Below are positions 5,789 to 63,329 of a stretch of DNA of 64,000 nucleotides, piece by piece. The position numbers and the translations under genes were made by a program. The notes under the pieces are model-generated. The model saw only the letters and a list, made by a program, of their open reading frames with translations. It was not told the origin of the DNA and did no database searches. Numbering within the stretch: position 1 is the first letter of the stretch; each line of letters starts with the position of its first letter. Origin of the DNA: Clostridiales bacterium DTU073 (lineage in GTDB: Bacteria; Bacillota; Peptococcia; DRI-13; DTU073); NCBI GenBank assembly GCA_001512665.1, contig LFSF01000038.1, positions 1,859 to 65,858 of the forward strand, read 5' to 3'.

Positions 5789-5817
5789 TTCTCATTAATT
5801 ATGGGGAAGGTTGTAGA

Positions 5818-7825: not shown

Positions 7826-7868
7826 AAATTCACAGTATAAATTTGCCTCTTGGAGGTGGTAAAAGCTA

Positions 7869-38342: not shown

Positions 38343-41300
38343 ATGAAGGCAAAATGGAAGAAGCTGCTTGATAAATCATCTTTTTCAAGTGAGGTTAGAG
38401 AATTTATCAATTCCTGTGAAATAAAGAAAATTCTTATTTCCCAGGCTGAAAAAGCTTGGGAAATATATTTTTGTTCTCCCCAGGAACCATCAACAGAAAT
38501 AAAGGAGACCTTACAAAATTTTTGGGAAAATACTTTTGGTCAAAGTTATAAAATAGTTTTTCATTTTGAAAATAGTAATAGCAAAATATACTCAAATTTA
38601 AAGGTATTGTGTGCAGAAAAATGGGAAGAAATCATTGGAAAATTAAGTACTAAAATACCTAGTAGTAAAGGATGGTTAGAGGGTGCTAAATATCAAGTCG
38701 AAAAAAATACACTTCAGATTGTTTTAAAACAGAAGCTAGGGTGTGCTTATCTTGTCAAACGTGGAGCGCAATTGTTGCTCCAAGATCTCTTAAGAGATGA
38801 ATATAATTATGAAGCTAAAGTTGAAATAACAAGTGATGAAACGGTAGAAAAAGAAAACCATTGGGCTGATTTAGAGGAATTAGCAAATTTATATCAGGAA
38901 AGATTTCAATATCATCAGAACAAGCAAGAAAATATGGCGGCAAAACCACAAACTCGTATGATTATGGGTAAATCATTTAAAAAGGAAATTGTAGCTCTTA
39001 ACCAAATTCTTGATGAAGAACGGGAAATCACGATAAAAGGGTTACTTTTTAATTTGGAAAAACGAGAGTTAAAAAGTGGCCGAATTTTGCTGAGTTTTTT
39101 TCTGACAGATAAAACCGATTCTCTTGCTTGCAAACTAATTATTAATCCTAAGGAACAAACCGTATCTTGGGAACAAATTCAAGAGAATAAATGGTATTTA
39201 GTTAATGGTAGAGTTGAGCATGATCGATATACGCAGGAATTAACTATGTTTCCACGTGATATGATGGAGACTGAACCGCAAGAACGTGAAGATAATGCAG
39301 AAAGAAAGAGAGTAGAATTACATTTACATACAAAGATGAGTGCTCTTGATAGTGTTGCTGATGTAAAGGATGTAGTAAATAAGGCACATTCGTGGGGCCA
39401 TTCTGCTATTGCAATTACTGATCACGGTGTGGTACAAGCTTTTCCGGATGCTTATGCTGCGGCTAAAGGTAAGGGTATTAAAATTATTTATGGTGTAGAA
39501 GGTTATTTATTTGATGATTCCGTCACAAATGATGGAGGAAAAGCACCAACATATCACGTGATAATTTTAGCTAGAAATCAGCAAGGGTTAGCTAATTTGT
39601 ACAGGTTAGTAACTATCTCCCACCTGCAGCACTTTTATCGTGTGCCGCGTATTCCTAAAAGTGAGTTAATCAGATTACGGGAAGGACTTTTGGTAGGTTC
39701 TGCCTGTGAAGCCGGAGAAGTATTCAGAGCTTTATTAAACGGAGCATCTCAGGACAAGCTTAAAGAAATAGCCAATTTTTATGATTATTTAGAAATACAG
39801 CCTCTGGGGAACAACCGTTTTATGCTTGAGAATGGTACGTTTACTTCGGAAGATGACCTAATTCGTTTAAATAAAATTATTTATGATTTAGGTAAAGATT
39901 TAAATAAAGCTGTAGTAGCTACTTGTGATGTTCATTTTTTAGAACCGGAAGATGAAGTTTTTCGCAGAATTCTCATGACGGGTAAGGGTTTTGAAGATGC
40001 GGATAAACAAGCACCACTTTATTTTCGGACTACAGAAGAGATGTTGCAGGAGTTTGCTTATTTAGGTAATAAAGAAGCCGAAGAAGTAGTAATCGCTAAC
40101 CCCTTAAAGATTGCTTCACTTATTGGTGAATTAAAACCTATTCCTGATGAATTATATCCACCAAATATTCCGGGTGCTGATGAAGAAATTATCCGGTTAA
40201 CTAAAGAAAGAGCAGAAGAATTATATGGTCCTTCTCCGCCTGAACTGATTGAACAGAGAATTGCAAAAGAGCTTAATTCGATTATTAATAACGGATTTGC
40301 TGTATTATATTGGATTGCCCATAAATTAGTAAAAAAATCTAATGAAGACGGTTATCTTGTTGGTTCGAGAGGTTCTGTCGGTTCGTCCTTTGTGGCATAT
40401 CTTTGCGGGATAACTGAGGTTAATCCCTTACCACCACATTATCGGTGTCCAACATGTAAAGAGGTTAATTTTGCAGATAAGGACAGTATTCAAGGGTCAG
40501 GAGCAGATTTGATTGATAAAAATTGTCCTCTTTGTGGTATAAAATTAATCAAAGATGGGCATAATATACCTTTTGAAGTTTTTTTAGGTTTTAAAGGTGA
40601 TAAAGTACCTGATATTGATTTGAACTTTTCAGGAGATTATCAGCCGCGAGCGCATAAATATACGGAAAAACTTTTTGGAAAAGATAATGTTTTTCGTGCT
40701 GGAACTATCGCTACGGTAGCCAGTAAAACAGCATATGGGTTTGTCAAGAATTATTTCGAAGAAAAAAATCAATATAAGCGTCAGGCAGAATTAACAAGGC
40801 TTATTAATGGTTGTACCGGGGTAAAAAGAACAACAGGACAACATCCAGGAGGTATAATGGTTTTACCTAAAGGATTAGATATTCATTTATTTACACCCTT
40901 ACAGAGACCTGCCGATGACGTTCGTTCTGAAATAATCACGACTCATTTTGATTATCATTCCATTTCCAGTAGATTGGTTAAATTAGATATTCTAGGTCAT
41001 GATGATCCCACGATAATTAAGATGTTGGAAGATTGGACAGGTGTAGATAGTAGAAAAATCCCCTTAGATGAACCTAAAGTATTATCTTTGTTTACGGGTA
41101 TTGAGGCTTTGGGAATTAAGCAGGAAGATTTTGATGTTAATGTAGGCACTTTAGGTATACCGGAATTTGGAACCAAATTTGTTCGTCAAATGTTGGAAGA
41201 TACTAAACCACAAACCTTTTCTGATTTGGTGCGAATTAGTGGTTTTTCACATGGTACTGATGTATGGCTGAATAATGCCCAGACTTTGATTAAATCAGGG

Positions 41301-42038
41301 ACTGCAAAAATTAATGAAGTTATTTCTGCACGTGATGATATTATGAACTATTTACTGCATAAAGGTTTAGAACCGGGTATGGCTTTTAAAATAATGGAAG
41401 ATGTACGTAAGGGGAAAGGTGTTAAGGCTGATTATGTACAGGCGATGAAAGAGAATGGTGTTCCTGATTGGTATATTGATTCTTGTCAAAAGATCAAATA
41501 TATGTTTCCTAAGGCCCATGCCGTTGCTTATGTGATGATGGCTTTCCGTATTGCCTATTTTAAAGTGTATTATCCGGCGGCTTTTTATGCCAGTTATTTT
41601 ACCGTTCATGCCCATGAAGTTGACGCAGATTTGCTTGTTAGTGGTATTTCCGGAATTAAAGCCAAGATGAAAGAAATTAAGGAAAAGGGTAATGATACTT
41701 CTGCAAAAGAAGAAAAAATGTATAGCCTTTTGGAAGTGGCTTTAGAAATGTATTTACGTGACCTTCGTTTTGAAAGAGTAAATTTACAGCGTTCTGATGC
41801 CGTAAAATTTTTAATCGAAGGGCAGAATAATTCCTTATTATGCCCGTTTATATCTATAGAAGGTTTGGGGAAAACGGCCGCGTTAAACATCATCCGTATG
41901 AGAAAGAAAAAAGCTTTTTCTTCCCAAGAGGATTTGCGTAACAGGTGTAAACTTAGTAAAACGATCTTAGAAATGTTAGAACAACATGGGGCGCTGGAAG
42001 GTTTACCGGAAAATGACCAACTGAGTCTATTTTTATAA
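38343..42038 (+). CDS. polC: DNA polymerase III PolC-type alpha subunit, variant lacking the internal 3'-5' exonuclease domain
   Basis: PHP start RVELHLHT, zinc module HYRCPTC..CPLCG, and GSRGSVGSSF, KVPDIDLNFSG and GQHPGGI polymerase motifs. Only 1231 aa, with no DEDDh segment between IIYGVEG and YHVIILARN. Confidence 0.93.
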   Translation: MKAKWKKLLDKSSFSSEVREFINSCEIKKILISQAEKAWEIYFCSPQEPSTEIKETLQNFWENTFGQSYKIVFHFENSNSKIYSNLKVLCAEKWEEIIGKLSTKIPSSKGWLEGAKYQVEKNTLQIVLKQKLGCAYLVKRGAQLLLQDLLRDEYNYEAKVEITSDETVEKENHWADLEELANLYQERFQYHQNKQENMAAKPQTRMIMGKSFKKEIVALNQILDEEREITIKGLLFNLEKRELKSGRILLSFFLTDKTDSLACKLIINPKEQTVSWEQIQENKWYLVNGRVEHDRYTQELTMFPRDMMETEPQEREDNAERKRVELHLHTKMSALDSVADVKDVVNKAHSWGHSAIAITDHGVVQAFPDAYAAAKGKGIKIIYGVEGYLFDDSVTNDGGKAPTYHVIILARNQQGLANLYRLVTISHLQHFYRVPRIPKSELIRLREGLLVGSACEAGEVFRALLNGASQDKLKEIANFYDYLEIQPLGNNRFMLENGTFTSEDDLIRLNKIIYDLGKDLNKAVVATCDVHFLEPEDEVFRRILMTGKGFEDADKQAPLYFRTTEEMLQEFAYLGNKEAEEVVIANPLKIASLIGELKPIPDELYPPNIPGADEEIIRLTKERAEELYGPSPPELIEQRIAKELNSIINNGFAVLYWIAHKLVKKSNEDGYLVGSRGSVGSSFVAYLCGITEVNPLPPHYRCPTCKEVNFADKDSIQGSGADLIDKNCPLCGIKLIKDGHNIPFEVFLGFKGDKVPDIDLNFSGDYQPRAHKYTEKLFGKDNVFRAGTIATVASKTAYGFVKNYFEEKNQYKRQAELTRLINGCTGVKRTTGQHPGGIMVLPKGLDIHLFTPLQRPADDVRSEIITTHFDYHSISSRLVKLDILGHDDPTIIKMLEDWTGVDSRKIPLDEPKVLSLFTGIEALGIKQEDFDVNVGTLGIPEFGTKFVRQMLEDTKPQTFSDLVRISGFSHGTDVWLNNAQTLIKSGTAKINEVISARDDIMNYLLHKGLEPGMAFKIMEDVRKGKGVKADYVQAMKENGVPDWYIDSCQKIKYMFPKAHAVAYVMMAFRIAYFKVYYPAAFYASYFTVHAHEVDADLLVSGISGIKAKMKEIKEKGNDTSAKEEKMYSLLEVALEMYLRDLRFERVNLQRSDAVKFLIEGQNNSLLCPFISIEGLGKTAALNIIRMRKKKAFSSQEDLRNRCKLSKTILEMLEQHGALEGLPENDQLSLFL

Positions 42039-50389: not shown

Positions 50390-50418
50390 TTGTTAAATCG
50401 TAGTGATTCTGCTATAAT
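50390..50418 (+). promoter_or_regulatory. Strong SigA-type promoter upstream of asp23
   Basis: TTGTTA (50390-95), 17-nt spacer, TATAAT (50413-18). Confidence 0.75.
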
Positions 50419-50441
50419 ATACGATATAAAAAGAGGAGGGA

Positions 50442-50852
50442 TTGATGATGGAAAATCAAGCTTCGGAAAAGACTATTTTTACAGAGGAAGGTTCTGTAAA
50501 AATTTCAGATGAAGTTGTGGCGATTATAGCCGGTCTGGCTGCAGCAGAAGTAAAAGGCGTTGCCGGAATGAGCGGAGGTATTGTCGGGGGAATTGCGGAG
50601 TTTGTGGGCAAGAAAAGCCCTTCTAAAGGAGTAAAGGTAGAAGTTGGAGAGAAAGAAGCAGCTGTTGATGTATATGTAATCGTGGAATTTGGTGTTAGAA
50701 TACCTGAGGTTGCCCATCAGATTCAGCAAAGTATTAAAAAGGCCATTGAGAGTATGACCGGTTTATCTGTAGTAGAAGTAAATGTACATATTCAAGGTGT
50801 TTCTTTCCCGCATGAGGTAAAAGAGGCAGAGCCAAATAAATCGTCAAAATAA
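50442..50852 (+). CDS. Asp23/Gls24 family alkaline-shock protein
   Basis: ISDEVVAIIAGLAAAEVKGVAGM and VDVYVIVEFGVRIPEVAHQIQ are typical of Asp23. Confidence 0.93.
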   Translation: MMMENQASEKTIFTEEGSVKISDEVVAIIAGLAAAEVKGVAGMSGGIVGGIAEFVGKKSPSKGVKVEVGEKEAAVDVYVIVEFGVRIPEVAHQIQQSIKKAIESMTGLSVVEVNVHIQGVSFPHEVKEAEPNKSSK

Positions 50853-50889
50853 TGCTTAATTATTTTTTAGTAATTTATTGGAGGATGTA

Positions 50890-51432
50890 ATGGGTAGTTT
50901 AAAAGTAAAATTTACGGTGGGAATTCTTTCCTTAGGATATATCATTGCCTCTATTCTGTTTATTCTTATTTCCTTTGGATGGTTTGTACCTATTGAGGCC
51001 TTTAAGCAGTTTCTGATTGAGCTTAATAACAGATGGATTTTAGGTTTAACCTCTTTTTTAGTTTTGATTTTTGCTTTAAATTTATTTATCAATAGTGTCA
51101 GAGTTAAACCGGATAAGCATACATCTATCCACAAAACTGCGTTAGGTCAAATTGATTTGAGTATATCGGCACTTGAACAACTTATTTTTAAAGCTGCTAA
51201 AAAGATTTCCGGTATTCATGAAGTTCATCCGGTACTTAAGGTTGTCGATAATAAGTTAGTGGTATTATTAAAAGTACAAGTAAACCCGGATTATAATATT
51301 CCGCAAATTACAGCAGAATTACAGCATGCGATTAAAGATTATCTTTTACAAACATCAGGGACAAGCATAGAGGAAGTAAAGGTTCAGGTGACGAAAATAA
51401 ATCTGGATAATAAAAACAGCAGGGTGGAATAG
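50890..51432 (+). CDS. amaP: Alkaline-shock response membrane anchor protein AmaP-like (track ORF from TTG 50878)
   Basis: Two N-terminal TM helices then an Asp23-like soluble domain. Follows asp23, as in the staphylococcal amaP/asp23 locus. Confidence 0.75.
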   Translation: MGSLKVKFTVGILSLGYIIASILFILISFGWFVPIEAFKQFLIELNNRWILGLTSFLVLIFALNLFINSVRVKPDKHTSIHKTALGQIDLSISALEQLIFKAAKKISGIHEVHPVLKVVDNKLVVLLKVQVNPDYNIPQITAELQHAIKDYLLQTSGTSIEEVKVQVTKINLDNKNSRVE

Positions 51433-51444
51433 GAGGCAAGGACG

Positions 51445-51660
51445 ATGTGGGAAAATATTTTCTTAGAATTGCTTAGACATCGTGGTAAAATAATTGGACT
51501 TTTAATTGGCCTTCTTTTTGCTTATTTAGTAATTCGCCACGGCTTTTTAATTACTCTTTTTGTTGGTCTTTGTTTATATATCGGGTTTACTATTGGGAAA
51601 CGTTTTGATGACAATGAGAGTTTAAGAGGAGTAATAGAAAGAATCCTTAAAGATAAATAA
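51445..51660 (+). CDS. DUF2273-type small integral membrane protein
   Basis: 71 aa with two TM helices (GKIIGLLIGLLFAYLVI; LITLFVGLCLYIGFTIG). A usual partner of asp23/amaP. Confidence 0.75.
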   Translation: MWENIFLELLRHRGKIIGLLIGLLFAYLVIRHGFLITLFVGLCLYIGFTIGKRFDDNESLRGVIERILKDK

Positions 51661-51707
51661 GTAAAGAGAAAAACTGATTAAAGAGTAGTAAAAAAGGAGG
51701 CTCTTTT

Positions 51708-52139
51708 TTGACTAGACGATTAGCACGTGAATTAGCCATGAAAACATTATTTGCCCACGAATTTAGTCAAAATAATCCTGAAGAAATATTGCCTCAACTT
51801 TGTGAAGAAATGCAGGCTTCCTTTGACGCGCAAAGATTTAGCGAATCTTTAGTGCAGGGAGTTATAGCTAATCAGTCTTTTCTGGATAAGATTATCAAAA
51901 CTTATGCTGTGGAATGGGATTTGGAAAGAATAGCTTTCGTGGATAAAAATATTATGCGCATCGCTTTGTACGAAATAATTTTTTCAGAAAACACACCAGT
52001 AGCTGTTGCGATAAATGAGGCCATAGAAATTGCTAAGATTTATAGTGGGCATGAGGCACCTCGCTTTATTAACGGCATACTTGGTAAAGTGATTAACGAT
52101 TTACCTGAATTAAGAAAGCAGAGCTTAAAAGAGAATTGA
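51708..52139 (+). CDS. nusB: Transcription antitermination factor NusB (TTG start)
   Basis: RRLARELAMKTLFAHEF and INEAIEIAKIYSGHEAPRFINGILGKV motifs. Confidence 0.95.
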   Translation: MTRRLARELAMKTLFAHEFSQNNPEEILPQLCEEMQASFDAQRFSESLVQGVIANQSFLDKIIKTYAVEWDLERIAFVDKNIMRIALYEIIFSENTPVAVAINEAIEIAKIYSGHEAPRFINGILGKVINDLPELRKQSLKEN

Positions 52140-52149
52140 AGGAAAGATC

Positions 52150-53160
52150 GTGTTGCCTGTGTTTTTAGGGATTGATACTAGTTGTTATACCACATCTCTT
52201 GCTCTTGTTGATGAGCAAGGAACATTGTTAGTTGAGAAGAGAATGATTCTTCCTGTACCTCTTGGTGAGCAAGGGCTGAGGCAATCTACAGCCCTTTTTT
52301 ATCATCTTCGGAATCTTCCTATGGTCATGCAAGAGGTTTTTTCTGTGCTTAACGGTAGGGAGCTAAAGGTTATTGCGGTCAGTGCTAAACCTTTACCACA
52401 TGAAAATTCTTATTTGCCGGTTTTTACCGCCGGTCTTTCTTTAGCAGAAAGCTTATCGGCAGTCCTGGGTATTCCTTTGCTCAAAACCAGTCATCAGGAA
52501 GGTCACCTGGCTGCAGGAGTTTGGAGTTGTGCAAAACAGCCGGGAGATGAATTTTTAGGCATACATTTTTCAGGAGGAACAACGGAATTACTTTTGATAA
52601 AAGAAAAATTACAGCCGCATTTAAGCTATGAAAGTAAAGTATTAGGTAAATCTCAAGATCTACATGCCGGACAATTAGTGGATCGGGTAGGAGTAGCCTT
52701 AGGCCTTCCTTTTCCTGCAGGGCGTTATTTGGAAAAATTAGCTGCAGAAGTTGATAATAAGGATGAGTTTCATGGAGATATAAAGATACCTTCTTCTGTG
52801 CAAGGTTATAATATTAGTTTTTCCGGTGCCGAAACCCTGGCTAAAAAATATCTGCAACAAGGGGTTCCTCCCCAGGAAATAGCTAGAGCTACCGAAAATT
52901 GTCTTGCTGTGACGGTGGAAAAGGTAATCCGCAAAGCTATTGAAGACACCGGAGTGAAGAAGGTGTTATTTGTTGGAGGCGTTATGGCCAATAGTTATAT
53001 TCGGAAACGTTTATGCAAACGTTTAGAACATCCTGCTGTTGGCGCCGAATTGTATTTTCCTAAACCGGAATATAATAGTGATAATGCTGTTGGTGTTAGT
53101 TTGATTGCCAGAAGTATGTATCACAGTTTAGATAATAGAAGAAATAATAAGATTAACTAA
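52150..53160 (+). CDS. Divergent TsaD/Kae1 (ASKHA, glycoprotease M22) family paralog of unknown function (GTG start)
   Basis: GIDTSCYTTS, SHQEGHL (HxxxH), HFSGGTTELL, ISFSGAET, GGVMANSYIR and SDNAVGV parallel TsaD motifs, but the GGVVPE..SR.H segment is replaced. Confidence 0.8.
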   Translation: MLPVFLGIDTSCYTTSLALVDEQGTLLVEKRMILPVPLGEQGLRQSTALFYHLRNLPMVMQEVFSVLNGRELKVIAVSAKPLPHENSYLPVFTAGLSLAESLSAVLGIPLLKTSHQEGHLAAGVWSCAKQPGDEFLGIHFSGGTTELLLIKEKLQPHLSYESKVLGKSQDLHAGQLVDRVGVALGLPFPAGRYLEKLAAEVDNKDEFHGDIKIPSSVQGYNISFSGAETLAKKYLQQGVPPQEIARATENCLAVTVEKVIRKAIEDTGVKKVLFVGGVMANSYIRKRLCKRLEHPAVGAELYFPKPEYNSDNAVGVSLIARSMYHSLDNRRNNKIN

Positions 53161-53188
53161 AAATGAATATGGAGGTATGTCTTAAAAA

Positions 53189-54049
53189 ATGACTGCACAA
53201 ATCATTGATGGTAAGATTGTAGCGAAAACTTTGCGCGAAAAGATCAAAGAGAAAGTCAAAGCTTATCAAGAAAAAGGTATAGTACCTGGTTTAGCCGTAA
53301 TTTTAGTAGGGAAAGATCCGGCTTCTCAAATATATGTAAGAAAAAAAGCTGAAGCCTGTCAGGAGTGTGGGATCAAATCTGAGGTTTTTAACTTAGACGA
53401 GACTACAGCGGAGAAAGATGTTTTAGCATTGATTGAGAGCTTAAATCAACGTAGAGATATACATGGAATTCTCGTGCAACTTCCTTTACCGGGTCATCTT
53501 AATGCGAAGGCGGTGATTGAGGCGATCAATCCGGCTAAAGATGTTGATGGATTGCATCCTCTCAATATGGGGAAATTGCTGGCGGGAAATCCTGCCTTAA
53601 TTCCTTGTACCCCATATGGTTGTATGAAGTTAATTGAAAGCACAGCTTATGCAATCAGAGGTAAAAATGCGGTGGTGATAGGTCGCAGTGATTTAGTTGG
53701 GAAACCGATAGCTGCTCTACTTTTAAAGGAAAATGCCACGGTAACTATCTGTCATTCTCATACACAAAATTTAGCGGAAATTACCGGTAAGGCTGATATT
53801 CTAGTAGTTGCCGTTGGGAAACCGCATTTTATTACCGGAGAAATGATTAAACCGGGGGCATTAGTTTTGGATGTAGGGATAAATAGGCTTTCAACCGGGA
53901 AAATAACGGGAGATGTTGATTTTTCTGCTGCAGCCGAGATTGCCGGGTGGATCACGCCTGTTCCGGGTGGGGTAGGTCCGATGACAATCACAATGCTGCT
54001 TGAAAACACTTTGGAGGCTACTTATGAACAAGAAAATATACTCCATTAA
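53189..54049 (+). CDS. folD: Methylenetetrahydrofolate dehydrogenase/cyclohydrolase
   Basis: IIDGKIVA, GILVQLPLP, VIGRSDLVGKP and TPVPGGVGPMT motifs. Confidence 0.97.
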   Translation: MTAQIIDGKIVAKTLREKIKEKVKAYQEKGIVPGLAVILVGKDPASQIYVRKKAEACQECGIKSEVFNLDETTAEKDVLALIESLNQRRDIHGILVQLPLPGHLNAKAVIEAINPAKDVDGLHPLNMGKLLAGNPALIPCTPYGCMKLIESTAYAIRGKNAVVIGRSDLVGKPIAALLLKENATVTICHSHTQNLAEITGKADILVVAVGKPHFITGEMIKPGALVLDVGINRLSTGKITGDVDFSAAAEIAGWITPVPGGVGPMTITMLLENTLEATYEQENILH

Positions 54050-55241
54050 TGAATTAAGTTTATTGATAAAAGGGATTATGGATAATCATCCGGTGTTATC
54101 CGCATTATGGGTACGCGGTGAAATTACTAATTTTAAGCGTCATAGTTCCGGACATTTGTATTTTTCCTTAAAGGATGAACATAGTAATATTCGCGCGGTC
54201 ATGTTCAGAAGCCGGGCGATGAAATTAAAGTTCATGCCTAGAGATGGTTTAGATTGCTTAGTGCGAGGCTATATTTCTCTTTATCCTAAGGAAACTTCCC
54301 TGCAGTTTTACGCAGAGGAGATTATTCCGGCAGGAGAAGGTTTGCAAAGTATAGCCTTAGCGGAATTAAAGGAAAAACTGCAAAAGAAGGGTTATTTTTC
54401 ACCGGAAAGAAAAAAACCTCTTCCTCATTTACCCAGAGGAGTTGGCGTAGTTAGCTCTCCGGTAGGGGCAGCCATTAGGGACATCAGCAGAGTGATTAAT
54501 AGACGTTATCCCGGTATGCCAATCATCCTTTATCCAACCCTTGTTCAAGGAGAAAAAGCTGCAGAAACTGTTGCCGAAGGAATTAGAATTCTTAATGAAC
54601 GAGAAGACCTTGATGTAATTATTGTGGCCAGAGGCGGAGGTTCTACTGAAGATTTGTATGTTTTTAATTCCGAAATAGTGGCTGATGCTGTTTTTCATTC
54701 TACCAAACCGGTAGTTTCAGCGATTGGGCATGAGATTGATTTTACAGTTACGGATTTGGTGGCAGATCTAAGGGCGGCAACTCCTTCCATGGCGGGAGAA
54801 CTAGTAGTACCTGTAAAAGTTGAGCTTGAGCAAATGCTCACTAAACAGAAAGGTAGACTTTTTCATTTGCTGAAGACTCGTTTGGATAAGGAAAACATGA
54901 GATTATCCTATTTGGCTGAGATGAGTATTTTAAAGCGACCCGAGCGCTGGTTAGATAAATATCGTGATGAATTAAGTAAAACTGAAGAGCGTTTGATGCT
55001 CTGTTGTGAGAATTTACTTAATTCTAAACAACAACAGCTAGCTGTGCTTGCGGGTAAATTAAATTCACTTAGTCCTTTGGACACATTGGCCAGAGGGTAC
55101 AGTATTTGTAAAAATGCTCAAGGTGAAATTCTTACTGACGCTAAAAAGGTTGCCTTGCAAGAAAAGATTGAGATACAATTATATTCAGGATCATTAGAGT
55201 GTGAAGTAGTGGGGAAGGAGGAAACTGCTCATGAGCAATGA
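54024..55241 (+). CDS. xseA: Exodeoxyribonuclease VII large subunit (track ORF from TTG 54000; GGAGG RBS favours ATG 54024)
   Basis: YSINELSLLIKGIM...LWVRGEITNFKRHSSGHLYFSLKD OB-fold N-terminus and RGGGS motif. Confidence 0.95.
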   Translation: MNKKIYSINELSLLIKGIMDNHPVLSALWVRGEITNFKRHSSGHLYFSLKDEHSNIRAVMFRSRAMKLKFMPRDGLDCLVRGYISLYPKETSLQFYAEEIIPAGEGLQSIALAELKEKLQKKGYFSPERKKPLPHLPRGVGVVSSPVGAAIRDISRVINRRYPGMPIILYPTLVQGEKAAETVAEGIRILNEREDLDVIIVARGGGSTEDLYVFNSEIVADAVFHSTKPVVSAIGHEIDFTVTDLVADLRAATPSMAGELVVPVKVELEQMLTKQKGRLFHLLKTRLDKENMRLSYLAEMSILKRPERWLDKYRDELSKTEERLMLCCENLLNSKQQQLAVLAGKLNSLSPLDTLARGYSICKNAQGEILTDAKKVALQEKIEIQLYSGSLECEVVGKEETAHEQ

Positions 55242-55464
55242 AAATAATTACGAAGCCAATATCAAAAGGTTAGAGGAAATAATCGCTCGTTTAGAAAAAG
55301 GTGAAGTGTCCTTAGAAGAAGGATTAGCCAATTTTGAAGAAGGAATAGCTTTGGTCAAGAAATGCCAGAAAGACCTTGACCGTGCTGCACAAAAGGTACA
55401 AGTTTTACAAGAAGGTGAACTAGTAGATTTAGCTGATTTAAAAGAAGAAAATGGAGTTGATTAG
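55231..55464 (+). CDS. xseB: Exodeoxyribonuclease VII small subunit
   Basis: 77 aa with LEEIIARLEKGEVSLEE. Overlaps the xseA stop. Confidence 0.93.
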   Translation: MSNENNYEANIKRLEEIIARLEKGEVSLEEGLANFEEGIALVKKCQKDLDRAAQKVQVLQEGELVDLADLKEENGVD

Positions 55465-55466
55465 AT

Positions 55467-56357
55467 TTGGAGTTAAAAAAATATTTGCAGGAAAGAGCAG
55501 CCTTAGTAGACCAAGCACTTCTTGAAATTATGCCTTCCCAAGAGCTTTATCCTGAAAAGATCCATCAAGCGATGCATTATAGTGTTTTTGCCGGAGGGAA
55601 GAGATTAAGACCGATTCTTTGCCTTGCAGCAGCAGAAGCAGTGGGTAAGGATTTTCAACCGTTTATACCTGTAGCTTGTGCTTTAGAAATGATTCACACC
55701 TATTCTTTAATTCATGATGACTTACCGGCAATGGATAATGATGATTATCGTAGAGGAAAACTAACTAATCATAAGGTTTTTGGTGAGGGAATAGCGATAT
55801 TAGCCGGTGATGCTTTATTAACCTATGCTTTTGAAGTTTTAGCCCGTAAGGGAGAAGAAAATCCACAGAATCAGAAATATCTGCAGGTTATACGGGAAAT
55901 AGCAGCTGCAGCGGGAACATTAGGGATGATTGGCGGGCAGGTAGTAGATCTAGACTCGGAAGGTAAAAATCTTACTGATGAAAAGCTACTTGTTTATATT
56001 CATACCCATAAGACAGGAGCACTCTTCCGAGCATCTGTGCGTGCAGGGGCAATTTTAGCCGGTGCCGGTGCAGAAGAATTAAAGTGTTTAACAATTTTTG
56101 CCGAAAAGTTTGGTTTAGCTTTTCAGATTACTGATGATTTACTAGACCTTTTCGGTGAAGAAGAAAAGTTGGGAAAACCTATAGGTAGTGATGCTAAAAA
56201 TAAAAAGGTTACTTATCCTGCTTTATATGGCGTAGAAAAATCCAGGTTTTTTGTTAGAGAAGCTATTGAGGAAGCAGAGACGGCATTACAGCAACTTCCC
56301 GGTTTTACTGAACCGTTGAAACTATTACTGCATTATTTACCCGAAAGACAAGTTTAA
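55467..56357 (+). CDS. ispA: (E,E)-farnesyl diphosphate synthase / short-chain polyprenyl synthase (TTG start)
   Basis: FARM LIHDDLPAMDNDDYRRG and SARM FQITDDLLD. Confidence 0.92.
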   Translation: MELKKYLQERAALVDQALLEIMPSQELYPEKIHQAMHYSVFAGGKRLRPILCLAAAEAVGKDFQPFIPVACALEMIHTYSLIHDDLPAMDNDDYRRGKLTNHKVFGEGIAILAGDALLTYAFEVLARKGEENPQNQKYLQVIREIAAAAGTLGMIGGQVVDLDSEGKNLTDEKLLVYIHTHKTGALFRASVRAGAILAGAGAEELKCLTIFAEKFGLAFQITDDLLDLFGEEEKLGKPIGSDAKNKKVTYPALYGVEKSRFFVREAIEEAETALQQLPGFTEPLKLLLHYLPERQV

Positions 56358-56410
56358 GTGGTGGATAGAACAGAAATTTAATGTTATTTACGATATAAAG
56401 AGGTATAGAT

Positions 56411-58330
56411 ATGGGATATTTACAACAAATTAACAGCCCCCAAGATTTAAAAAAGCTTAAAATTACCGAACTAGATAAACTAGCTGAAGAAATTCGGTTA
56501 TTCCTCTTAAAAACCGTGGCAAATACCGGAGGACATTTAGCATCAAATCTAGGTGTTGTTGAATTAACTTTGGCTTTACATTATCTTTTTGATACCTCCA
56601 AAGATCGTTTAGTATGGGATGTTGGTCATCAATCTTATGTGCATAAAATATTAACAGGCAGAAAAGATGTATTTTACGGTTTAAGGCAGTTTGGCGGATT
56701 ATCCGGTTTTCCCAAGCGAGAGGAAAGCATTCATGATGCTTTTAATACCGGTCATAGTAGCACCTCTATTTCTGCTGCTTTGGGGTTTGTTTTGGCGCGG
56801 GAACAGTTGGGCGAAGACTATAAGGTTGTAGCTGTTATCGGTGACGGGTCAATGACCGGCGGTGAAGCTTATGAGGCTCTAAATCAGGCCGGAAACTTAA
56901 AAAAGGACCTCTTAGTAATTTTAAATGATAATGAAATGTCCATTTCTAAAAATGTGGGGGCATTGCCATCATATTTAAGCCGTTTACGTTCAGATCCATT
57001 TTATACGAGAAGAAAAAAGGATATTGAATTTCTCTTAAATAAGGTGCCGGCGATAGGACCTTCGGTGGCCAGGGCCGCAGAAAGGGTTAAAGACAGTTTG
57101 AAATATTTGCTGGTACCGGGAATGCTTTTTGAAGAATTAGGCTTTACTTATTTAGGACCAATAGATGGACATCATATCCAGAACTTAATTGGTGTACTGA
57201 AAAAAGCACAAGATTTAAAGGGTCCGGTTTTACTTCATGTTTTGACGAAAAAGGGTCAAGGATATGAACCTGCCGTAAAGAATCCGGCTGAGTTTCATGG
57301 TGTGGGCAGCTTTGATTTAAGTACGGGCAATATTCCTAAAAACCCAGGACCACCAACATATACAAATGTTTTTGCAGATACAATTGTTGATTTAGCAGCT
57401 CGTGATGAACGTATTGTCACTATTACCGCTGCAATGCCGGAAGGTACCGGTTTAAATAAATTTGCGAAGAAGTATCCACAAAGATTTATTGATGTGGGTA
57501 TTGGCGAGCAGAATGCTGTTACTATGGCTGCTGCTTTGGCTTTAAAAGGACTGCATCCGGTAGTGGCAATTTATTCAACTTTTTTGCAAAGAGCATATGA
57601 CCAAATATTACATGATGTTTGTTTACAAAATGCTCCGGTTATCTTTGCCATTGACAGAGCAGGTTTAGTAGGCGAAGATGGACCTACGCACCATGGGGCA
57701 TTTGATTTATCATATTTACGACATTTGCCGGGGATGTCCATTTTAGCTCCTGCTGACGAAGAGGAGCTTCGGCACATGTTATATACGGCACTTCGTTATC
57801 AAGGACCGTCTGCAATACGTTATCCTCGCGGTAAAGCCATGGGAGTATCTTTAACTGCAGATTATCAGGAGATTCCATGGGGAAAAGCAGAGCTGTTGAC
57901 GGAAGGAAAGGATTTCTTAATCTTAGCAGTTGGCTCAATGGTTTATCCGGCTTTAATTACGCGAGAAATATTAGGGGAAAAAGGTTTTTCCAGTACAGTT
58001 GTAAATGCACGTTTTGTTAAACCGTTGGACGAAGAGCTGCTTATGGAGCTTGTACCACAGCATAAATATCTTGTGACGGTTGAGGAAAATGTTATTGCCG
58101 GAGGATATGGTAGTGGTGTTTTGGAGTTTCTTAGTCAAAAGAGGATTCCTACCAACAATTCTCTGCTGTTAGGTCTGCCTGATGAATTTGTTACTCATGG
58201 TGAACAAAATCTCTTGCGGGAAAAGGTAGGTTTGACTTCTGAAACTATGGCGAAAAAAATTATGGAGCATTTTTCTCTCAAAGAACGAAAGGCAACAACT
58301 AAGCCCAAGATTTCTTTTTTGCGAAGATAA
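56411..58330 (+). CDS. dxs: 1-deoxy-D-xylulose-5-phosphate synthase
   Basis: GGHLASNLGVVELT, TPP motif GDGSMTGGEAYEALN and DRAGLVGEDGPTHHG. Confidence 0.97.
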   Translation: MGYLQQINSPQDLKKLKITELDKLAEEIRLFLLKTVANTGGHLASNLGVVELTLALHYLFDTSKDRLVWDVGHQSYVHKILTGRKDVFYGLRQFGGLSGFPKREESIHDAFNTGHSSTSISAALGFVLAREQLGEDYKVVAVIGDGSMTGGEAYEALNQAGNLKKDLLVILNDNEMSISKNVGALPSYLSRLRSDPFYTRRKKDIEFLLNKVPAIGPSVARAAERVKDSLKYLLVPGMLFEELGFTYLGPIDGHHIQNLIGVLKKAQDLKGPVLLHVLTKKGQGYEPAVKNPAEFHGVGSFDLSTGNIPKNPGPPTYTNVFADTIVDLAARDERIVTITAAMPEGTGLNKFAKKYPQRFIDVGIGEQNAVTMAAALALKGLHPVVAIYSTFLQRAYDQILHDVCLQNAPVIFAIDRAGLVGEDGPTHHGAFDLSYLRHLPGMSILAPADEEELRHMLYTALRYQGPSAIRYPRGKAMGVSLTADYQEIPWGKAELLTEGKDFLILAVGSMVYPALITREILGEKGFSSTVVNARFVKPLDEELLMELVPQHKYLVTVEENVIAGGYGSGVLEFLSQKRIPTNNSLLLGLPDEFVTHGEQNLLREKVGLTSETMAKKIMEHFSLKERKATTKPKISFLRR

Positions 58331-58356
58331 AGACCATAAAGTAAGCAAGAAGAGGA

Positions 58357-59187
58357 TTGTATATGCATAAAATTCGCTTAGATCAATTGTTAGTTAATAG
58401 AGGACTGGTCTCTAGCCGGGAAAAAGGTAAAGCCTTGATTATGGCCGGACAGGTTTATATCAATGGGGAAAAGGCGGAAAAACCGGGGACAGGTGTTTAT
58501 GACGATACAGTTGTGGAAATAAAAGGAGAAGGTTTGCCATATGTAAGCAGAGGCGGTTTGAAGCTAGAGAGGGCACTACAGGAGTTCGAACTGGATATCC
58601 AAGATAAGCTTATCTTGGATATTGGTGCTTCCACAGGTGGATTTACTGATTGTGCCTTAAAAAACGGGGCCAAAAAGGTTTATGCCGTTGATGTTGGTTA
58701 TGGTCAGTTAGCGTGGTCTTTACGTCAAGATCCGCGTGTTGTGGTTATGGAAAGAACAAATGCACGTTATTTAACCACCGAGGATATTCCTGAAGCAATA
58801 GAGGTCATAACCATTGATGTCTCTTTTATCTCTTTACGAAAACTACTTGCTCCGCTTTATGCTTTATTAAAGGAAGACGGTTTTATTATTGCTTTGATTA
58901 AACCGCAATTTGAAGCAGGAAGAGAGCAAGTTGGGAAAAATGGTGTAATTAAAGAGCAAACCATTCATCAGCAGGTTATCGAAGATGTGATAACTTACAG
59001 TCAGAAATTAAACTTTATCGTCAAAGGATTAACTTATTCGCCAATTAAAGGACCACAAGGCAATATAGAATTTTTGCTTTGGTTACAAAAAACAGCATGT
59101 TTAAACAAGGATAATAATGAAAATATAGATGAAGAACTGCGTTTAAAGATAAAGAATGTCGTAGCTGAAGCACATCAGGTTTTATAA
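58357..59187 (+). CDS. tlyA: TlyA-family rRNA 2'-O-methyltransferase (S4 + FtsJ domains; ATG 58363 possible)
   Basis: IRLDQLLVNRGLVSSREKGKALI (S4 domain) and LDIGASTGGFTDC (SAM motif). Confidence 0.9.
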   Translation: MYMHKIRLDQLLVNRGLVSSREKGKALIMAGQVYINGEKAEKPGTGVYDDTVVEIKGEGLPYVSRGGLKLERALQEFELDIQDKLILDIGASTGGFTDCALKNGAKKVYAVDVGYGQLAWSLRQDPRVVVMERTNARYLTTEDIPEAIEVITIDVSFISLRKLLAPLYALLKEDGFIIALIKPQFEAGREQVGKNGVIKEQTIHQQVIEDVITYSQKLNFIVKGLTYSPIKGPQGNIEFLLWLQKTACLNKDNNENIDEELRLKIKNVVAEAHQVL

Positions 59188-59209
59188 ATAAGCCGGAGGA
59201 TTTGAAGAG

Positions 59210-59671
59210 ATGACACCGCTTGAACGAGTAAGGGAATTTTTTGCGAAAATTCCTTCACCACCGGAAATTATCATTTTTGAACAGGATACTTCTACATCAT
59301 CATTAGCCGCTCAAGCACTTGGCGTAGAGGTAGGACAGATTGCCAAGTCTCTTGTTTTTACCGGAAAAAAGGGTGAGGCGGTGATGGTAGTAACCTGTGG
59401 TGATGTAAAAGTTGATATTAAAAAGTTAAAGAGTTTAGTAGGGTTTAAACCTAAATTTGCTACAAGTACTGAGGTTAAAGCTTTAACCGGCTATTCGCCG
59501 GGCGGGGTATGCCCGTTTGCTTTGCAGACAGACCTACCGATTTATCTTGATGTGAGTATGAAGAGGTATCCACTTGTCTATACGGCTGCCGGTACATCTA
59601 ATACAGCTGTGCCTATTGAATTTTCCCGTTTATTAGCAATTACCGGTGGAAAAAGCTGTGACGTGTGTTAA
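59210..59671 (+). CDS. YbaK/EbsC-family aminoacyl-tRNA trans-editing domain protein
   Basis: 153 aa. IAKSLVF and TGYSPGGVCPF motifs are typical of YbaK/ProX-type deacylases. Confidence 0.8.
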   Translation: MTPLERVREFFAKIPSPPEIIIFEQDTSTSSLAAQALGVEVGQIAKSLVFTGKKGEAVMVVTCGDVKVDIKKLKSLVGFKPKFATSTEVKALTGYSPGGVCPFALQTDLPIYLDVSMKRYPLVYTAAGTSNTAVPIEFSRLLAITGGKSCDVC

Positions 59672-59697
59672 ATACTTTTGAATTAATGGAGGAAAAG

Positions 59698-60564
59698 ATG
59701 ATTAATTCGCTGGGACTAATAGTAAATTATCGTCAACAAAAGCCGGTTTTGATGGGGAAAAAATTAATAGAAAAGTTTAAAAACAGAGGCATTGATGTCT
59801 TTGTTTTAGAAGAGGAAGGAGCTTATTTAGGAATTGATTCCTCTTTTATTACAGCTGATTTTAGCGAAAACGTTCAGTGTGTTGTGGCTTTGGGCGGTGA
59901 TGGTACATTTTTGCGTGCGGCGAGAGCCGTAGCACCTTTTGGAGTACCTGTTATCGGTATCAATATGGGGACATTGGGTTTTTTAACTGAAGTAGAAGTT
60001 AGCGAATTAGAAGATGCTCTGGAAAAACTCTTTCAAGGTGCATATTGGCTTGAAGATAGAATGATGCTACAAGTAAAAATTAAGCGTCAGGGGGAAACAA
60101 TTAAAAGTTTTCATGGTTTGAATGATGTTGTTATTAATAAAGGACCGCTGGCGAGGTTAAATACTTTGGAAATATATGTAGATAAAGAATATGTTACTAC
60201 TTACAAAGCAGACGGTGTGATTTTTTCTTCACCTACCGGGTCCACAGCCTATTCCTTGTCGGCAGGAGGACCTATTGTCTATCCGGAAATTGATGTAATA
60301 ATTATGACACCTATTTGTGCACATACACTTGATGATCGTCCCATTGTTTTACCTCCGAATAAAACAGTATGTGTGAAGATTATTAATCAGGCTGATTCTA
60401 TGCTCACGATCGATGGTCAGAGTGGTTTTAAATTGCAAATTAATGATGAAATAATCATTGCCAAAGCTCCTTATCGCGTGAAGATGATTAGGCTTAAGGA
60501 AAAAAGGTTTTTTACAATTCTGCGAGAAAAGATTAAAAAAGAAAGTAGTGCTTGTGATGAATAA
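59698..60564 (+). CDS. nadK: NAD kinase (track ORF from 59665; GGAGG RBS favours ATG 59698)
   Basis: ALGGDGTFLRAAR, NMGTLGFL and STPTGSTAYSLSAGGP motifs. Confidence 0.95.
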   Translation: MINSLGLIVNYRQQKPVLMGKKLIEKFKNRGIDVFVLEEEGAYLGIDSSFITADFSENVQCVVALGGDGTFLRAARAVAPFGVPVIGINMGTLGFLTEVEVSELEDALEKLFQGAYWLEDRMMLQVKIKRQGETIKSFHGLNDVVINKGPLARLNTLEIYVDKEYVTTYKADGVIFSSPTGSTAYSLSAGGPIVYPEIDVIIMTPICAHTLDDRPIVLPPNKTVCVKIINQADSMLTIDGQSGFKLQINDEIIIAKAPYRVKMIRLKEKRFFTILREKIKKESSACDE

Positions 60565-61123
60565 GCTGCTCAAAGCTACCGGATTTTCACACCACCTTTT
60601 GGCACAATTTTTGGGTAACGGACAAAAAGTTATTGATGCAACAACAGGAAATGGCTATGATACACTGTTTTTAGCAGAAGCCGTAGGACATTCGGGGTTA
60701 GTATATGCCTTTGATATACAGGAACAAGCATTGCAAAAGACAAGAGAATTATTAGCAGAACATCATTGTCTGCAACAGGTAAAATTAATACATGCAGGTC
60801 ATGAAAAAATTAAGGAATATGTTCGGGAACCCGTACAAGCGATTGTCTATAATTTAGGTTATTTACCGGGAGGAAATAAAAAGATAATTACCCAAGCTGA
60901 GACAACATTACTTTCTTTACAACAGGGAACAGAGTTATTGAGTCCAGGTGGTGTAATTTCATTAATAATTTATCCGGGTCATCCCGGCGGTCAAAAGGAA
61001 GCAGAGCTTATTGAATCTTATCTTGGTACACTCTCTCCACGAAGATGGCAAGTATTAAAATGGTCCAGAATAAATGGCAATTATGTTAAGGCGCCTTATG
61101 TCTTATTTATGCTAAAGTCTTGA
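60548..61123 (+). CDS. YtqB/MnmM-like class I SAM-dependent methyltransferase (GTG 60548 or ATG 60557 start)
   Basis: VIDATTGNGYDTLFLAE SAM motif and YNLGYLPGG motif, typical of the putative rRNA/tRNA methylase family PF06962. Confidence 0.8.
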   Translation: MLVMNKLLKATGFSHHLLAQFLGNGQKVIDATTGNGYDTLFLAEAVGHSGLVYAFDIQEQALQKTRELLAEHHCLQQVKLIHAGHEKIKEYVREPVQAIVYNLGYLPGGNKKIITQAETTLLSLQQGTELLSPGGVISLIIYPGHPGGQKEAELIESYLGTLSPRRWQVLKWSRINGNYVKAPYVLFMLKS

Positions 61124-61157
61124 TACTCTTGTTTTATGTAAAAAGGAGGGCATTTTT

Positions 61158-61610
61158 TTGAAGGCAAAGAGACAAAGAAAAATTAAAGAAATCATTAAAA
61201 ATAATGATATTTCTACTCAGGAAGAATTGGCAAATGCTTTGAAAAAGGCGGGCTTTAATGTTACACAGGCTACGGTTTCCCGTGATATTAAAGAGTTACG
61301 CTTAGTTAAAATTGCCAGGAAAGATAACGTCTATGTTTATGGCCTTCCCAAACAGCAAGCAATCGTACATAGTGAAGATAGATTGCGTTTGATGATGCAG
61401 GAATTTGTACAAGATATAAATTTCAGTGAAAATCTGATTGTGTTGAAAACATATCCCGGTAATGCCCATGGAGTTGCTTCTCTTCTTGATTCGTCTAACT
61501 GGGAAGGAATCATCGGAACGTTAGCAGGGGATGACACCATTCTTTTAATTATTAAACCAAGAGAAAAAGTCGAAGATATCCTCAACAAATTAAAAAGTTT
61601 AATGAAGTAG
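61158..61610 (+). CDS. argR: Arginine repressor ArgR/AhrC (TTG start)
   Basis: Winged HTH ISTQEELANALKKAGFNVTQATVSRDIKEL and C-terminal GTLAGDDTILLI. Confidence 0.95.
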   Translation: MKAKRQRKIKEIIKNNDISTQEELANALKKAGFNVTQATVSRDIKELRLVKIARKDNVYVYGLPKQQAIVHSEDRLRLMMQEFVQDINFSENLIVLKTYPGNAHGVASLLDSSNWEGIIGTLAGDDTILLIIKPREKVEDILNKLKSLMK

Positions 61611-61619
61611 GTGTAAAAG

Positions 61620-63287: not shown

Positions 63288-63293
63288 CATTAT

Positions 63294-63329
63294 TTAACCT
63301 TTCGCCTAAACGCGGAAGGTTAATTTTTT
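63294..63329 (+). terminator. Intrinsic terminator after recN
   Basis: TTAACCTTTCGC-CTAAAC-GCGGAAGGTTAA (12-bp stem with one G-U pair) followed by TTTTTT. Confidence 0.85.

What the first reader, a model, noticed from the sequence alone, without database searches (positions are those of the whole stretch)
38343..42038. PolC replicase cleanly lacking its built-in 3'-5' proofreading exonuclease domain while keeping a complete-looking PHP metal site
The ORF is unmistakably PolC-type. It has the N-terminal and OB region, the PHP start RVELHLHT, the PolC zinc module HYRCPTC...CPLCG, and the GSRGSVGSSF and KVPDIDLNFSG palm motifs. It is only 1231 aa, about 200 aa shorter than the ~1430-aa PolC I know from Bacillus, Staphylococcus and Clostridium. 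In canonical PolC a DnaQ-like DEDDh exonuclease is inserted in the PHP domain between the IYG-x-E strand and the H-x-x-LLA-x-N-x-x-GL-x-NLY strand. Here those strands are separated by only about 13 residues (IIYGVEGYLFDDSVTNDGGKAPTYHVIILARNQQGLANLY, nt ~39495-39600). I see no D-x-E-T-T-G (ExoI) or H-x-x-x-x-D (ExoIII) motif anywhere in the ORF. The frame is continuous, so this is a clean domain absence rather than a pseudogene. By eye all nine PHP ligand positions are occupied: HLH..D in HLHTKMSALD, then TDH, VEG, YHV, SAC and DVH. In Thermus and Mycobacterium DnaE1 an intact PHP site is itself the proofreading exonuclease. This suggests either a PolC that proofreads through its PHP domain or one that depends on a trans-acting DnaQ-like subunit. 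I do not know whether such exo-less PolC variants have been characterised.
Basis: partly seen in the sequence, partly recalled or inferred. Interest (0 to 1): 0.75.

Follow-up and report, generated by a model that had tools for sequence, protein, structure and literature searches.

The report
Known exonuclease-less PolC replicase variant
This is the normal chromosomal PolC replicase of a Peptococcia (Clostridia) bacterium, in a natural form lacking the built-in DnaQ-type proofreading domain; the form was reported in 2013, is common in Clostridia and Negativicutes, and probably proofreads through its intact PHP metal site, though nobody has tested this.

Summary
ORF 38343-42038 (+) encodes a 1231-aa PolC (NCBIfam equivalog 1617 bits). 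No DEDDh exonuclease is detectable by Pfam, by a custom HMM of 24 real PolC Exo inserts, or by motif search. All nine PHP metal ligands (H327 H329 D336 H361 E386 H405 C455 D529 H531) align with Taq DnaE.

It is not an artefact. The identical protein lies on at least 13 independently assembled contigs. 96 of 120 close homologs and 78 of 80 species-representative genome loci share the short 12-23 aa loop, including closed Sporomusa genomes.

It is not new. Timinskas et al. 2014 (PMC3919608) reported that 6% of PolCs lack the Exo insertion, almost exclusively in Clostridia and Negativicutes.

My analyses add three points:
- The Exo domain was lost several times.
- Exo-less PolCs keep the full HHDHEHCDH motif. 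The one exception is a tandem second copy beside a canonical polC.
- No DnaQ-like gene lies in the window or beside any exo-less polC examined.

PHP-based proofreading is the best-supported mechanism, helped by the C. thermocellum PolC C669Y PHP-ligand mutator. It remains biochemically untested. Interest is low to moderate.

The parts
38343..42038 (+). polC, PolC-type DNA polymerase III alpha subunit, 1231 aa, exonuclease-less variant
   Evidence: ORF. NCBIfam NF001688 scores 1617 bits. 3f2b aligns to residues 218-1230 in one stretch. The AF2 model matches 3f2b with E=4.6e-99 and TM 0.66.
38358..38951 (+). PolC-specific N-terminal domains I and II (residues 6-203)
   Evidence: Pfam DNA_pol3_a_NII scores 38.8 bits, above its cut-off. 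NI scores 21.8 bits, just under its 22-bit cut-off.
39027..39260 (+). OB fold N-terminal to PHP (residues 229-306), the PolC-type position
   Evidence: Weak Pfam tRNA_anti-codon hit, E=0.011. It aligns to the OB domain of 3f2b. The model shows beta strands at model residues 17-101.
39297..40100 (+). PHP domain (residues ~319-586) with all nine metal ligands: H327 H329 D336 H361 E386 H405 C455 D529 H531
   Evidence: Pfam PHP E=8e-36. Ligand-by-ligand alignment to Taq DnaE 2hpi. The motif HHDHEHCDH is invariant in 120/120 homologs.
39501..39554 (+). 18-residue PHP loop (residues 387-404, GYLFDDSVTNDGGKAPTY), the site where canonical PolC carries the ~213-aa DEDDh Exo insert
   Evidence: Junction alignment of exo-less and exo+ relatives. 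PMC5636811 states that the Exo sits in this loop, which is 18 aa long in Taq.
40185..41459 (+). Polymerase core: palm, thumb and fingers (residues 615-1039), with catalytic D757, D759 and D882
   Evidence: Pfam DNA_pol3_alpha E=2.8e-58 and finger E=8.2e-26. The PDIDLNF and LDILGHDD acidic residues are invariant in 120/120. The D882 assignment rests on spacing relative to Gka D975/D1098, which is my inference.
40446..40535 (+). PolC Cys4 zinc module (C702, C705, C728, C731)
   Evidence: All four Cys are invariant in 120/120 homologs. The region aligns to Gka 'HYVCPNC...CPRCG'.
41769..42014 (+). Tandem helix-hairpin-helix DNA-binding domain (residues 1143-1224)
   Evidence: Pfam HHH_6 E=1.1e-10.
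42018..42032 (+). C-terminal beta-clamp-binding motif QLSLF (residues 1226-1230)
   Evidence: Read directly from the sequence. Q is conserved in 119/120 and F in 118/120 homologs. That this motif binds the clamp is established knowledge about PolC (Timinskas 2014).

Best explanation
This is the single-copy, housekeeping polC of a Peptococcia (Clostridia) bacterium. It sits in the conserved Firmicutes proS-polC-rimP-nusA-infB locus.

It belongs to the already described class of PolC enzymes that have lost the DnaQ-like DEDDh exonuclease normally inserted in a loop of the PHP domain. The polymerase active site, zinc module, HhH domain and clamp-binding motif are all intact, so it should be a working replicase subunit.

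Most likely, 3'-5' proofreading is done by the PHP domain itself. In this model a trinuclear Zn/Mn centre held by H327, H329, D336, H361, E386, H405, C455, D529 and H531 hydrolyses the mismatched primer end, as in Thermus and Mycobacterium DnaE1. The Exo domain could then be lost repeatedly in Clostridia and Negativicutes because an active PHP proofreader already made it redundant in these lineages.

Shown here: identity, architecture, absence of the Exo domain, intact ligands, recurrence of the loss, and that the gene is real. Inferred: that the PHP site is catalytically active and is the proofreader.
For: Identity and architecture.

Housekeeping locus: dxr-rseP-ispG-proS-GT2-MgtC-polC-rimP-nusA-ylxR-infB.

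No Exo domain.

Ligands: all nine match Taq DnaE. Solved Bacilli PolCs (3f2b, 9qpc) have N at ligand 8, where this ORF keeps D. PMC5636811 states that Gka PolC has one ligand mutated and no PHP exonuclease activity, and that Mtb D23 or D226 mutants are inactive. The loop is 18 aa long, as in Taq.

Conservation: HHDHEHCDH is present in 96/96 exo-less close homologs, in 76/76 complete exo-less genome loci, and in 21/22 exo-less 50%-cluster representatives, against 69/111 exo+ representatives. The single exception, P0219, is a second copy directly downstream of a 1400-aa exo+ polC.

Repeated loss: exo-less/exo+ sister pairs have bootstrap support of 99-100.

In vivo support: a PHP Cys-ligand mutation (C669Y, equivalent to C455 here) in C. 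thermocellum PolC gives a ~30-fold mutator (bioRxiv 10.1101/2021.07.30.454558).

No nearby DnaQ: no DnaQ-like ORF in any frame of the 64-kb window or in the flanks of 78 exo-less polC loci.
Against: - No exonuclease assay exists for any natural exo-less PolC in the searched literature.
- PHP ligands are equally intact in the 24 exo+ close relatives. Their conservation is therefore a clostridial trait, not a compensation specific to Exo loss.
- The Fisher test (p=0.002) is not corrected for phylogeny.
- The C669Y mutator was found in an exo+ PolC and could act by destabilising the PHP/Exo module.
- The rest of the genome (dnaE1, stand-alone DnaQ homologs) could not be searched.
- Timinskas et al. 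raise the possibility that DnaE1, not PolC, is the main replicase in these bacteria.
Confidence: 0.6

Rival explanations
1. The exo-less PolC proofreads in trans. A separately encoded DnaQ-like DEDDh exonuclease binds PolC, or acts at the fork, as epsilon does with E. coli DnaE or as the PolC Exo does for DnaE3 in B. subtilis.
For: Stand-alone DnaQ homologs are abundant in bacterial genomes, more than 3 per proteome on average (PMC12926913). Trans complementation of DnaE3 by the PolC Exo is reported (same paper). Clostridial DnaE1 has a conserved putative epsilon-binding surface (PMC3919608).
Against: No DEDDh-like ORF occurs in any frame of the 64-kb window; the best E-value is 0.31. None occurs in the 3-10 kb flanks of 78 exo-less polC loci. 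Invariant conservation of all nine PHP ligands would not be needed if PHP were only a scaffold; E. coli PHP lost 5 of 9 ligands once epsilon took over. No epsilon partner for any PolC is known.
Confidence: 0.12
2. This PolC does not proofread at all. Fidelity comes from DnaE1, possibly the main replicase with its own active PHP, and from mismatch repair. The PHP metal site in PolC is kept for a structural, pyrophosphatase or other role.
For: Timinskas et al. note that all PolCs lacking Exo are clostridial and always paired with DnaE1, which has every feature of a self-sufficient replicase. They ask whether DnaE1 replicates the genome normally. A PHP pyrophosphatase role has been proposed for E. 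coli DnaE (PMC4822814, listed). One exo-less PolC, P0219, has a fully degenerate PHP.
Against: P0219 is a tandem extra copy beside a canonical polC, not a sole PolC. Everywhere else the nine ligands are invariant down to ~45% identity. The gene keeps the conserved housekeeping locus, catalytic residues and clamp motif. The C. thermocellum PHP-ligand mutant is a 30-fold mutator, so clostridial PolC does contribute to genome fidelity.
Confidence: 0.2
3. The short form is ancestral. It would be a PolC lineage that predates insertion of the Exo domain, not a secondary loss.
For: Within the bs=93 clade that contains the query, exo-less lineages are the majority and exo+ Desulfotomaculum is nested among them, with weak internal support. 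PHP is proposed to be the ancestral proofreader (Rock 2015, as cited in PMC5636811).
Against: Exo-less sequences are scattered across the PolC tree as sisters of exo+ ones with 99-100% bootstrap support. Fitch parsimony on the midpoint-rooted tree reconstructs an exo+ root. The insert position and length (212-214 aa) are uniform in exo+ forms, which argues for one gain and many losses.
Confidence: 0.07
4. The ~600-nt absence is an assembly artefact or a decaying pseudogene.
For: None found.
Against: The identical 1231-aa protein occurs on at least 13 contigs from independent samples and assemblers. Relatives at 53-88% identity have the same architecture. Closed isolate genomes share it. The frame is continuous and all catalytic motifs are invariant.
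Confidence: 0.01

Closest known systems
Exo-less PolC variants of Clostridia and Negativicutes (Timinskas, Balvociute, Timinskas & Venclovas, NAR 2014, PMC3919608)
   Same: Same architecture: NTD-OB-PHP-Pol3-HhH without the Exo insertion. Same taxonomic range (Clostridia and Negativicutes). Intact PHP metal site. This ORF is a member of that class.
   Different: Nothing material. The paper drew on ~2000 genomes and found 6% of PolCs, or 16% of those in PolC+DnaE1 systems. Present databases show hundreds of species.
Canonical PolC (B. subtilis, S. aureus, G. kaustophilus; PDB 3f2b, 9qpc)
   Same: 54% identity to Gka PolC across OB, PHP, Pol3 and HhH. Same zinc module, catalytic aspartates and clamp motif. 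Same genomic locus.
   Different: It lacks the ~213-aa DEDDh exonuclease. PHP ligand 8 is D here but N in both solved Bacilli PolCs. It resembles the engineered delta-Exo crystallisation construct 3f2b, which aligns in one piece.
PHP-exonuclease proofreading DnaE1 (Thermus aquaticus/thermophilus, Mycobacterium tuberculosis; PDB 2hpi, 5lew)
   Same: The same nine-residue trinuclear metal site, HHDHEHCDH. The loop between ligands 5 and 6 is the same length as in Taq, 18 aa.
   Different: A different paralogous family (PolC versus DnaE1). Domain order differs, with the OB N-terminal. Only ~20% identity overall. No exonuclease activity has been demonstrated for any PolC PHP domain.
C. thermocellum PolC C669Y hypermutator (bioRxiv 10.1101/2021.07.30.454558)
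   Same: A clostridial PolC with an intact PHP site. The mutated residue is the PHP Cys ligand, equivalent to C455 here.
   Different: That PolC still carries the Exo domain, so it does not show that PHP alone suffices.

Membership tests
PolC-type DNA polymerase III alpha subunit | Full-length match to the curated PolC equivalog model above its cut-off | tested here: met
   NF001688 scores 1617 bits against a cut-off of 873. TIGR01405 scores 1432 bits against 1043.
PolC-type DNA polymerase III alpha subunit | PolC domain order: NTD (NI/NII) and OB N-terminal to PHP, HhH C-terminal, no DnaE-type CTD | tested here: met
   Pfam NII 93-203, OB 229-306 (weak), PHP 325-480, Pol3 615-798, finger 889-1039, HHH_6 1143-1224. 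Residues 218-1230 are colinear with 3f2b.
PolC-type DNA polymerase III alpha subunit | Catalytic acidic residues, Cys4 zinc module and clamp-binding motif | tested here: met
   PDIDLNF, LDILGHDD, C702/C705/C728/C731 and QLSLF are present and conserved across 120 homologs.
PolC-type DNA polymerase III alpha subunit | Integral DnaQ-like DEDDh exonuclease inserted in the PHP domain, the 'hallmark' of canonical PolC | tested here: not met
   No PF00929 at E<=10. The custom Exo HMM gives no hit at E<=1000, while the positive control scores 342 bits. The loop is 18 aa. The family's curators still class such forms as PolC (PMC3919608).
Exo-less PolC subclass (Clostridia and Negativicutes) | PolC without the Exo insertion, in a Clostridia or Negativicutes genome | tested here: met
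   The 100%-identical protein is named 'Peptococcia bacterium' by NCBI. Nearest relatives are Thermanaerosceptrum, Desulfosporosinus, Sporomusa and others, all exo-less.
Exo-less PolC subclass (Clostridia and Negativicutes) | Co-occurrence with a DnaE1-type second polymerase | not testable with these tools
   No dnaE in the 64-kb window. Co-occurrence is expected from PMC3919608.
PHP-exonuclease proofreaders (Taq/Tth/Mtb DnaE1 type) | Complete nine-ligand motif HHDHEH[C/H]DH | tested here: met
   H327 H329 D336 H361 E386 H405 C455 D529 H531 align to Taq 2hpi. The motif definition comes from PMC12926913.
PHP-exonuclease proofreaders (Taq/Tth/Mtb DnaE1 type) | Metal-dependent 3'-5' exonuclease activity on mismatched primer ends | not testable with these tools
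   This needs biochemistry. The only indirect in vivo support comes from C. thermocellum C669Y.
Epsilon (DnaQ)-dependent replicases | A stand-alone DEDDh exonuclease gene that partners the polymerase | tested here: inconclusive
   None in the window or in the flanks of 78 exo-less polC loci. Whole genomes could not be searched.

The most novel reading that the evidence does not exclude
Exo-less PolCs such as this one are natural PolC replicases whose only proofreader is the PHP trinuclear metal site. On this reading, the PHP exonuclease is active in clostridial PolC generally, making it redundant with the DEDDh insert, which is why the insert was lost several times independently. That would extend PHP proofreading, so far shown only for DnaE1 and PolX enzymes, to the PolC family.
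Probability: 0.5. Interest if true: 0.45.

Novelty: already known. Interest (0 to 1): 0.25.

Why it matters
How Clostridia and Negativicutes replicate and proofread with a PolC+DnaE1 pair is still experimentally open. Natural exo-less PolCs are the cleanest system for asking whether a PolC PHP domain is a real exonuclease.

The answer also bears on PolC-targeted antibiotics and on PHP as a drug target. The variant itself, its taxonomic range and the PHP hypothesis are all already in the literature. This window therefore adds one more example, not a discovery.

Tried and rejected
- **Hidden or degenerate Exo domain:** rejected.
- **Exo encoded in another frame or elsewhere in the window:** rejected by a six-frame HMM search; best E=0.31.
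- **Assembly artefact:** rejected.
- **DnaQ gene adjacent to exo-less polC in relatives:** none found in 78 loci.
- **Exo-less forms as a single clade:** rejected; several well-supported independent exo-less/exo+ sister pairs exist.
- **PHP intactness as a compensation specific to Exo loss:** not supported, because exo+ close relatives are equally intact. The broader association is confounded by phylogeny, since degenerate PHP sites are mostly in lineages where exo-less forms do not occur.
- **Per-species DnaQ data in the supplements of PMC12926913:** only genome lists are held.
- **Rock et al. 2015 (PMC4449270):** could not be read.
- **dnaE1 or stand-alone dnaQ of this genome:** no tool route was available.
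- **Rfam scan of the window:** found nothing.
Full report
**Observation**

The window has one long ORF at 38343..42038 (+). It is 1231 aa, starts with ATG and has an uninterrupted frame.

Pfam finds PHP (325-480, E=8e-36), DNA_pol3_alpha, the finger domain, HHH_6 and the PolC-specific N-terminal domains. It finds no RNase_T/DnaQ family even at E<=10.

The NCBIfam PolC equivalog NF001688 scores 1617 bits against a cut-off of 873. It matches in two stretches, and the second maps residues 400-1230 onto profile positions 611-1444. The roughly 200 profile positions that model the exonuclease are therefore skipped.

Against the PDB, the best match is 3f2b, the G. kaustophilus PolC crystallisation construct from which the Exo domain was removed by engineering. 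It aligns in a single stretch (218-1230). The full-length PolC 9qpc aligns in two.

I built an HMM from the 24 real Exo inserts of exo+ relatives. With all filters off it finds nothing in the ORF at E<=1000, while a positive control scores 342 bits. No D-x-E-T-T-G motif exists in the ORF.

The only small correction is that the spacing between PHP ligands E386 and H405 is 18 residues.

**PHP site**

The PHP region aligned to Taq DnaE (2hpi) places H327, H329, D336, H361, E386, H405, C455, D529 and H531 on the nine ligand columns. This matches the 'active' motif HHDHEH[C/H]DH used by the Venclovas group (PMC12926913).

The Taq mutant structure 3e0d differs from 2hpi at exactly the D336 and D529 equivalents. 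Both solved Bacilli-type PolCs have Asn at ligand 8, where this protein keeps Asp.

Baños-Mateos et al. (PMC5636811) report three relevant facts:
- Gka PolC has one ligand mutated and shows no PHP exonuclease activity.
- The corresponding Asp mutants of Mtb DnaE1 are inactive.
- The PolC Exo domain is inserted in the PHP loop that is 18 residues long in Taq. That is the same length as the loop here.

An AlphaFold2 model of residues 210-1231 has mean pLDDT 76, with the PHP region mostly at 80-90. It superposes on 3f2b over 1020 columns with E=4.6e-99 and TM 0.66.

**Real gene or artefact**

The identical protein is encoded on at least 13 contigs from different JGI and ENA samples, assembled with different programs. 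All show the same neighbours.

The locus is dxr-rseP-ispG-proS-(GT2, MgtC/ACT)-polC-rimP-nusA-ylxR-L7Ae-infB-rbfA-nrnA-truB-ribF. It is preceded by the fla/che operon and rpsB-region genes. This is the conserved Firmicutes housekeeping position of polC.

The catalytic acidic residues, the Cys4 zinc module and the C-terminal QLSLF clamp motif are conserved.

**Distribution**

NCBI names the 100%-identical protein 'Peptococcia bacterium' (MAG).

Of the 120 best homologs, 96 are exo-less, with 12-21 aa loops and lengths of about 1216-1255 aa. The other 24 are exo+, with 212-214 aa inserts.

In one genome per GTDB species, 78 of the 80 best loci are exo-less. They include:
- closed genomes of four Sporomusa type strains;
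- Anaerovibrio lipolyticus, Anaerospora hongkongensis, Pelosinus baikalensis and Desulfosporosinus fructosivorans;
- Desulfitobacteriaceae, Veillonellaceae and Syntrophomonadaceae.

Among 133 near-full-length 50%-cluster representatives of PolC diversity, 22 are exo-less.

**Already known**

Timinskas et al. [quoted passage not shown] They found them, apart from one extra copy in Thermotogae, exclusively in Clostridia and Negativicutes, always paired with DnaE1. They discussed whether PHP-dependent proofreading is widespread and whether DnaE1 might be the main replicase there.

In 2007 all 41 known polC genes still had the domain. I found no paper reporting biochemistry on a natural exo-less PolC.

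**What my analysis adds**

1. *Repeated loss.* I built an NJ tree from 991 columns, with the Exo columns excluded and 100 bootstraps. Exo-less sequences are scattered. Several exo-less/exo+ sister pairs have 99-100% support: P0124/P0127, P0167/P0126 and (P0185, P0197)/P0152. The midpoint-rooted Fitch reconstruction gives an exo+ root. The backbone is weak, so the raw count of 18 changes is an over-estimate. The query's own clade (bs 100) lies in a bs-93 clade with Sporomusa, Paradesulfitobacterium and Heliorestis (exo-less) and Desulfotomaculum/Desulforamulus (exo+).

2. *PHP motif retained.* The full motif is present in 96/96 close homologs, 76/76 complete genome loci and 21/22 exo-less representatives, against 69/111 exo+ representatives. 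This association (Fisher p=0.002) is not phylogeny-corrected. The exo+ close relatives are intact too. The defensible reading is that Exo loss has happened only on a background where PHP is intact, not that PHP was restored to compensate.

3. *The one exception.* P0219 is exo-less with motif HRSLENSDQ. It lies directly downstream of a 1400-aa exo+ polC on the same contig, so it is an extra copy and not a sole PolC.

4. *No nearby DnaQ.* No DEDDh-like ORF exists in any frame of the window or in the flanks of the exo-less loci.

**Mechanism**

The best-supported explanation is that this PolC is a functional replicase subunit whose cis proofreading, if it has any, is done by the PHP trinuclear metal centre, as in Thermus and Mycobacterium DnaE1.

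Independent in vivo support comes from C. thermocellum. [quoted passage not shown] That enzyme still has its Exo domain, so the evidence is indirect.

Two rivals remain open. One is a trans-acting DnaQ-like subunit encoded elsewhere. The other is a non-proofreading PolC, with fidelity supplied by DnaE1 and mismatch repair. The rest of the genome could not be searched and no biochemistry exists.

**Verdict**

This is a typical member of a known and common PolC variant class. The remaining open question is experimental (is a PolC PHP domain an exonuclease?), and it is not specific to this window.

Noticed in passing
L005:5702-9904 and L005:10001-13537 (ENA ERZ27319752 k141_497749): Two polC genes lie in tandem. 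The first is a 1400-aa canonical exo+ PolC. It is followed after 96 nt by a 1178-aa PolC (P0219) that lacks the Exo insert and has a fully degenerate PHP motif (HRSLENSDQ), so it has no cis proofreader at all. The 90% cluster has 8 full-length members on contigs up to 134 kb. Neighbours include DnaK/DnaJ, a resolvase, Cas12f1-like TNB ORFs and an S8 autotransporter. The organism is unknown.
   Followed up: partly
P0237 (1631 aa), P0262 (1918 aa), P0246 (1617 aa): Some PolC representatives have inserts of 411-413 aa or 291 aa between PHP ligands 5 and 6, instead of the usual ~213 aa. This is about double the size and could be a duplicated Exo, an intein or an extra domain.
   Followed up: no
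L058 (Paradesulfitobacterium ferrireducens NZ_JAFLRH010000006.1), match 3001-8069: The tblastn match to the query spans 5069 nt, although the longest polC ORF there is only 1258 aa and exo-less. There may be an extra polC-like segment or an insertion downstream.
   Followed up: no
window:37022-38341: A GT2 glycosyltransferase and an MgtC+ACT membrane protein are inserted between proS and polC. The MgtC stop codon ends at 38341, with one base between it and the polC ATG at 38343, which suggests co-transcription or translational coupling. In the low-coverage SPAdes contig L004 both genes are fragmented, probably by sequencing errors.
   Followed up: no
L055-L070, L076 (Anaerovibrio spp.): Anaerovibrio exo-less PolCs are longer (1275-1322 aa). 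They align to the query only from residue ~206 onward, so their N-terminal region is divergent or extended.
   Followed up: no
window:45-27000 and 50400-63300: The window otherwise reproduces B. subtilis-like synteny. Upstream is the fla/che operon (fliI, fliJ, fliK, flgD, flgE, motA/B, fliL/M/N(Y), cheY, fliO/P/R, flhB/A/F, a MinD-like gene). Downstream are Asp23, nusB, a TsaD-like gene, folD, xseA, ispA, dxs, tlyA, a YbaK-like editing domain, nadK and recN. Rfam found no RNA families at gathering thresholds.
   Followed up: partly
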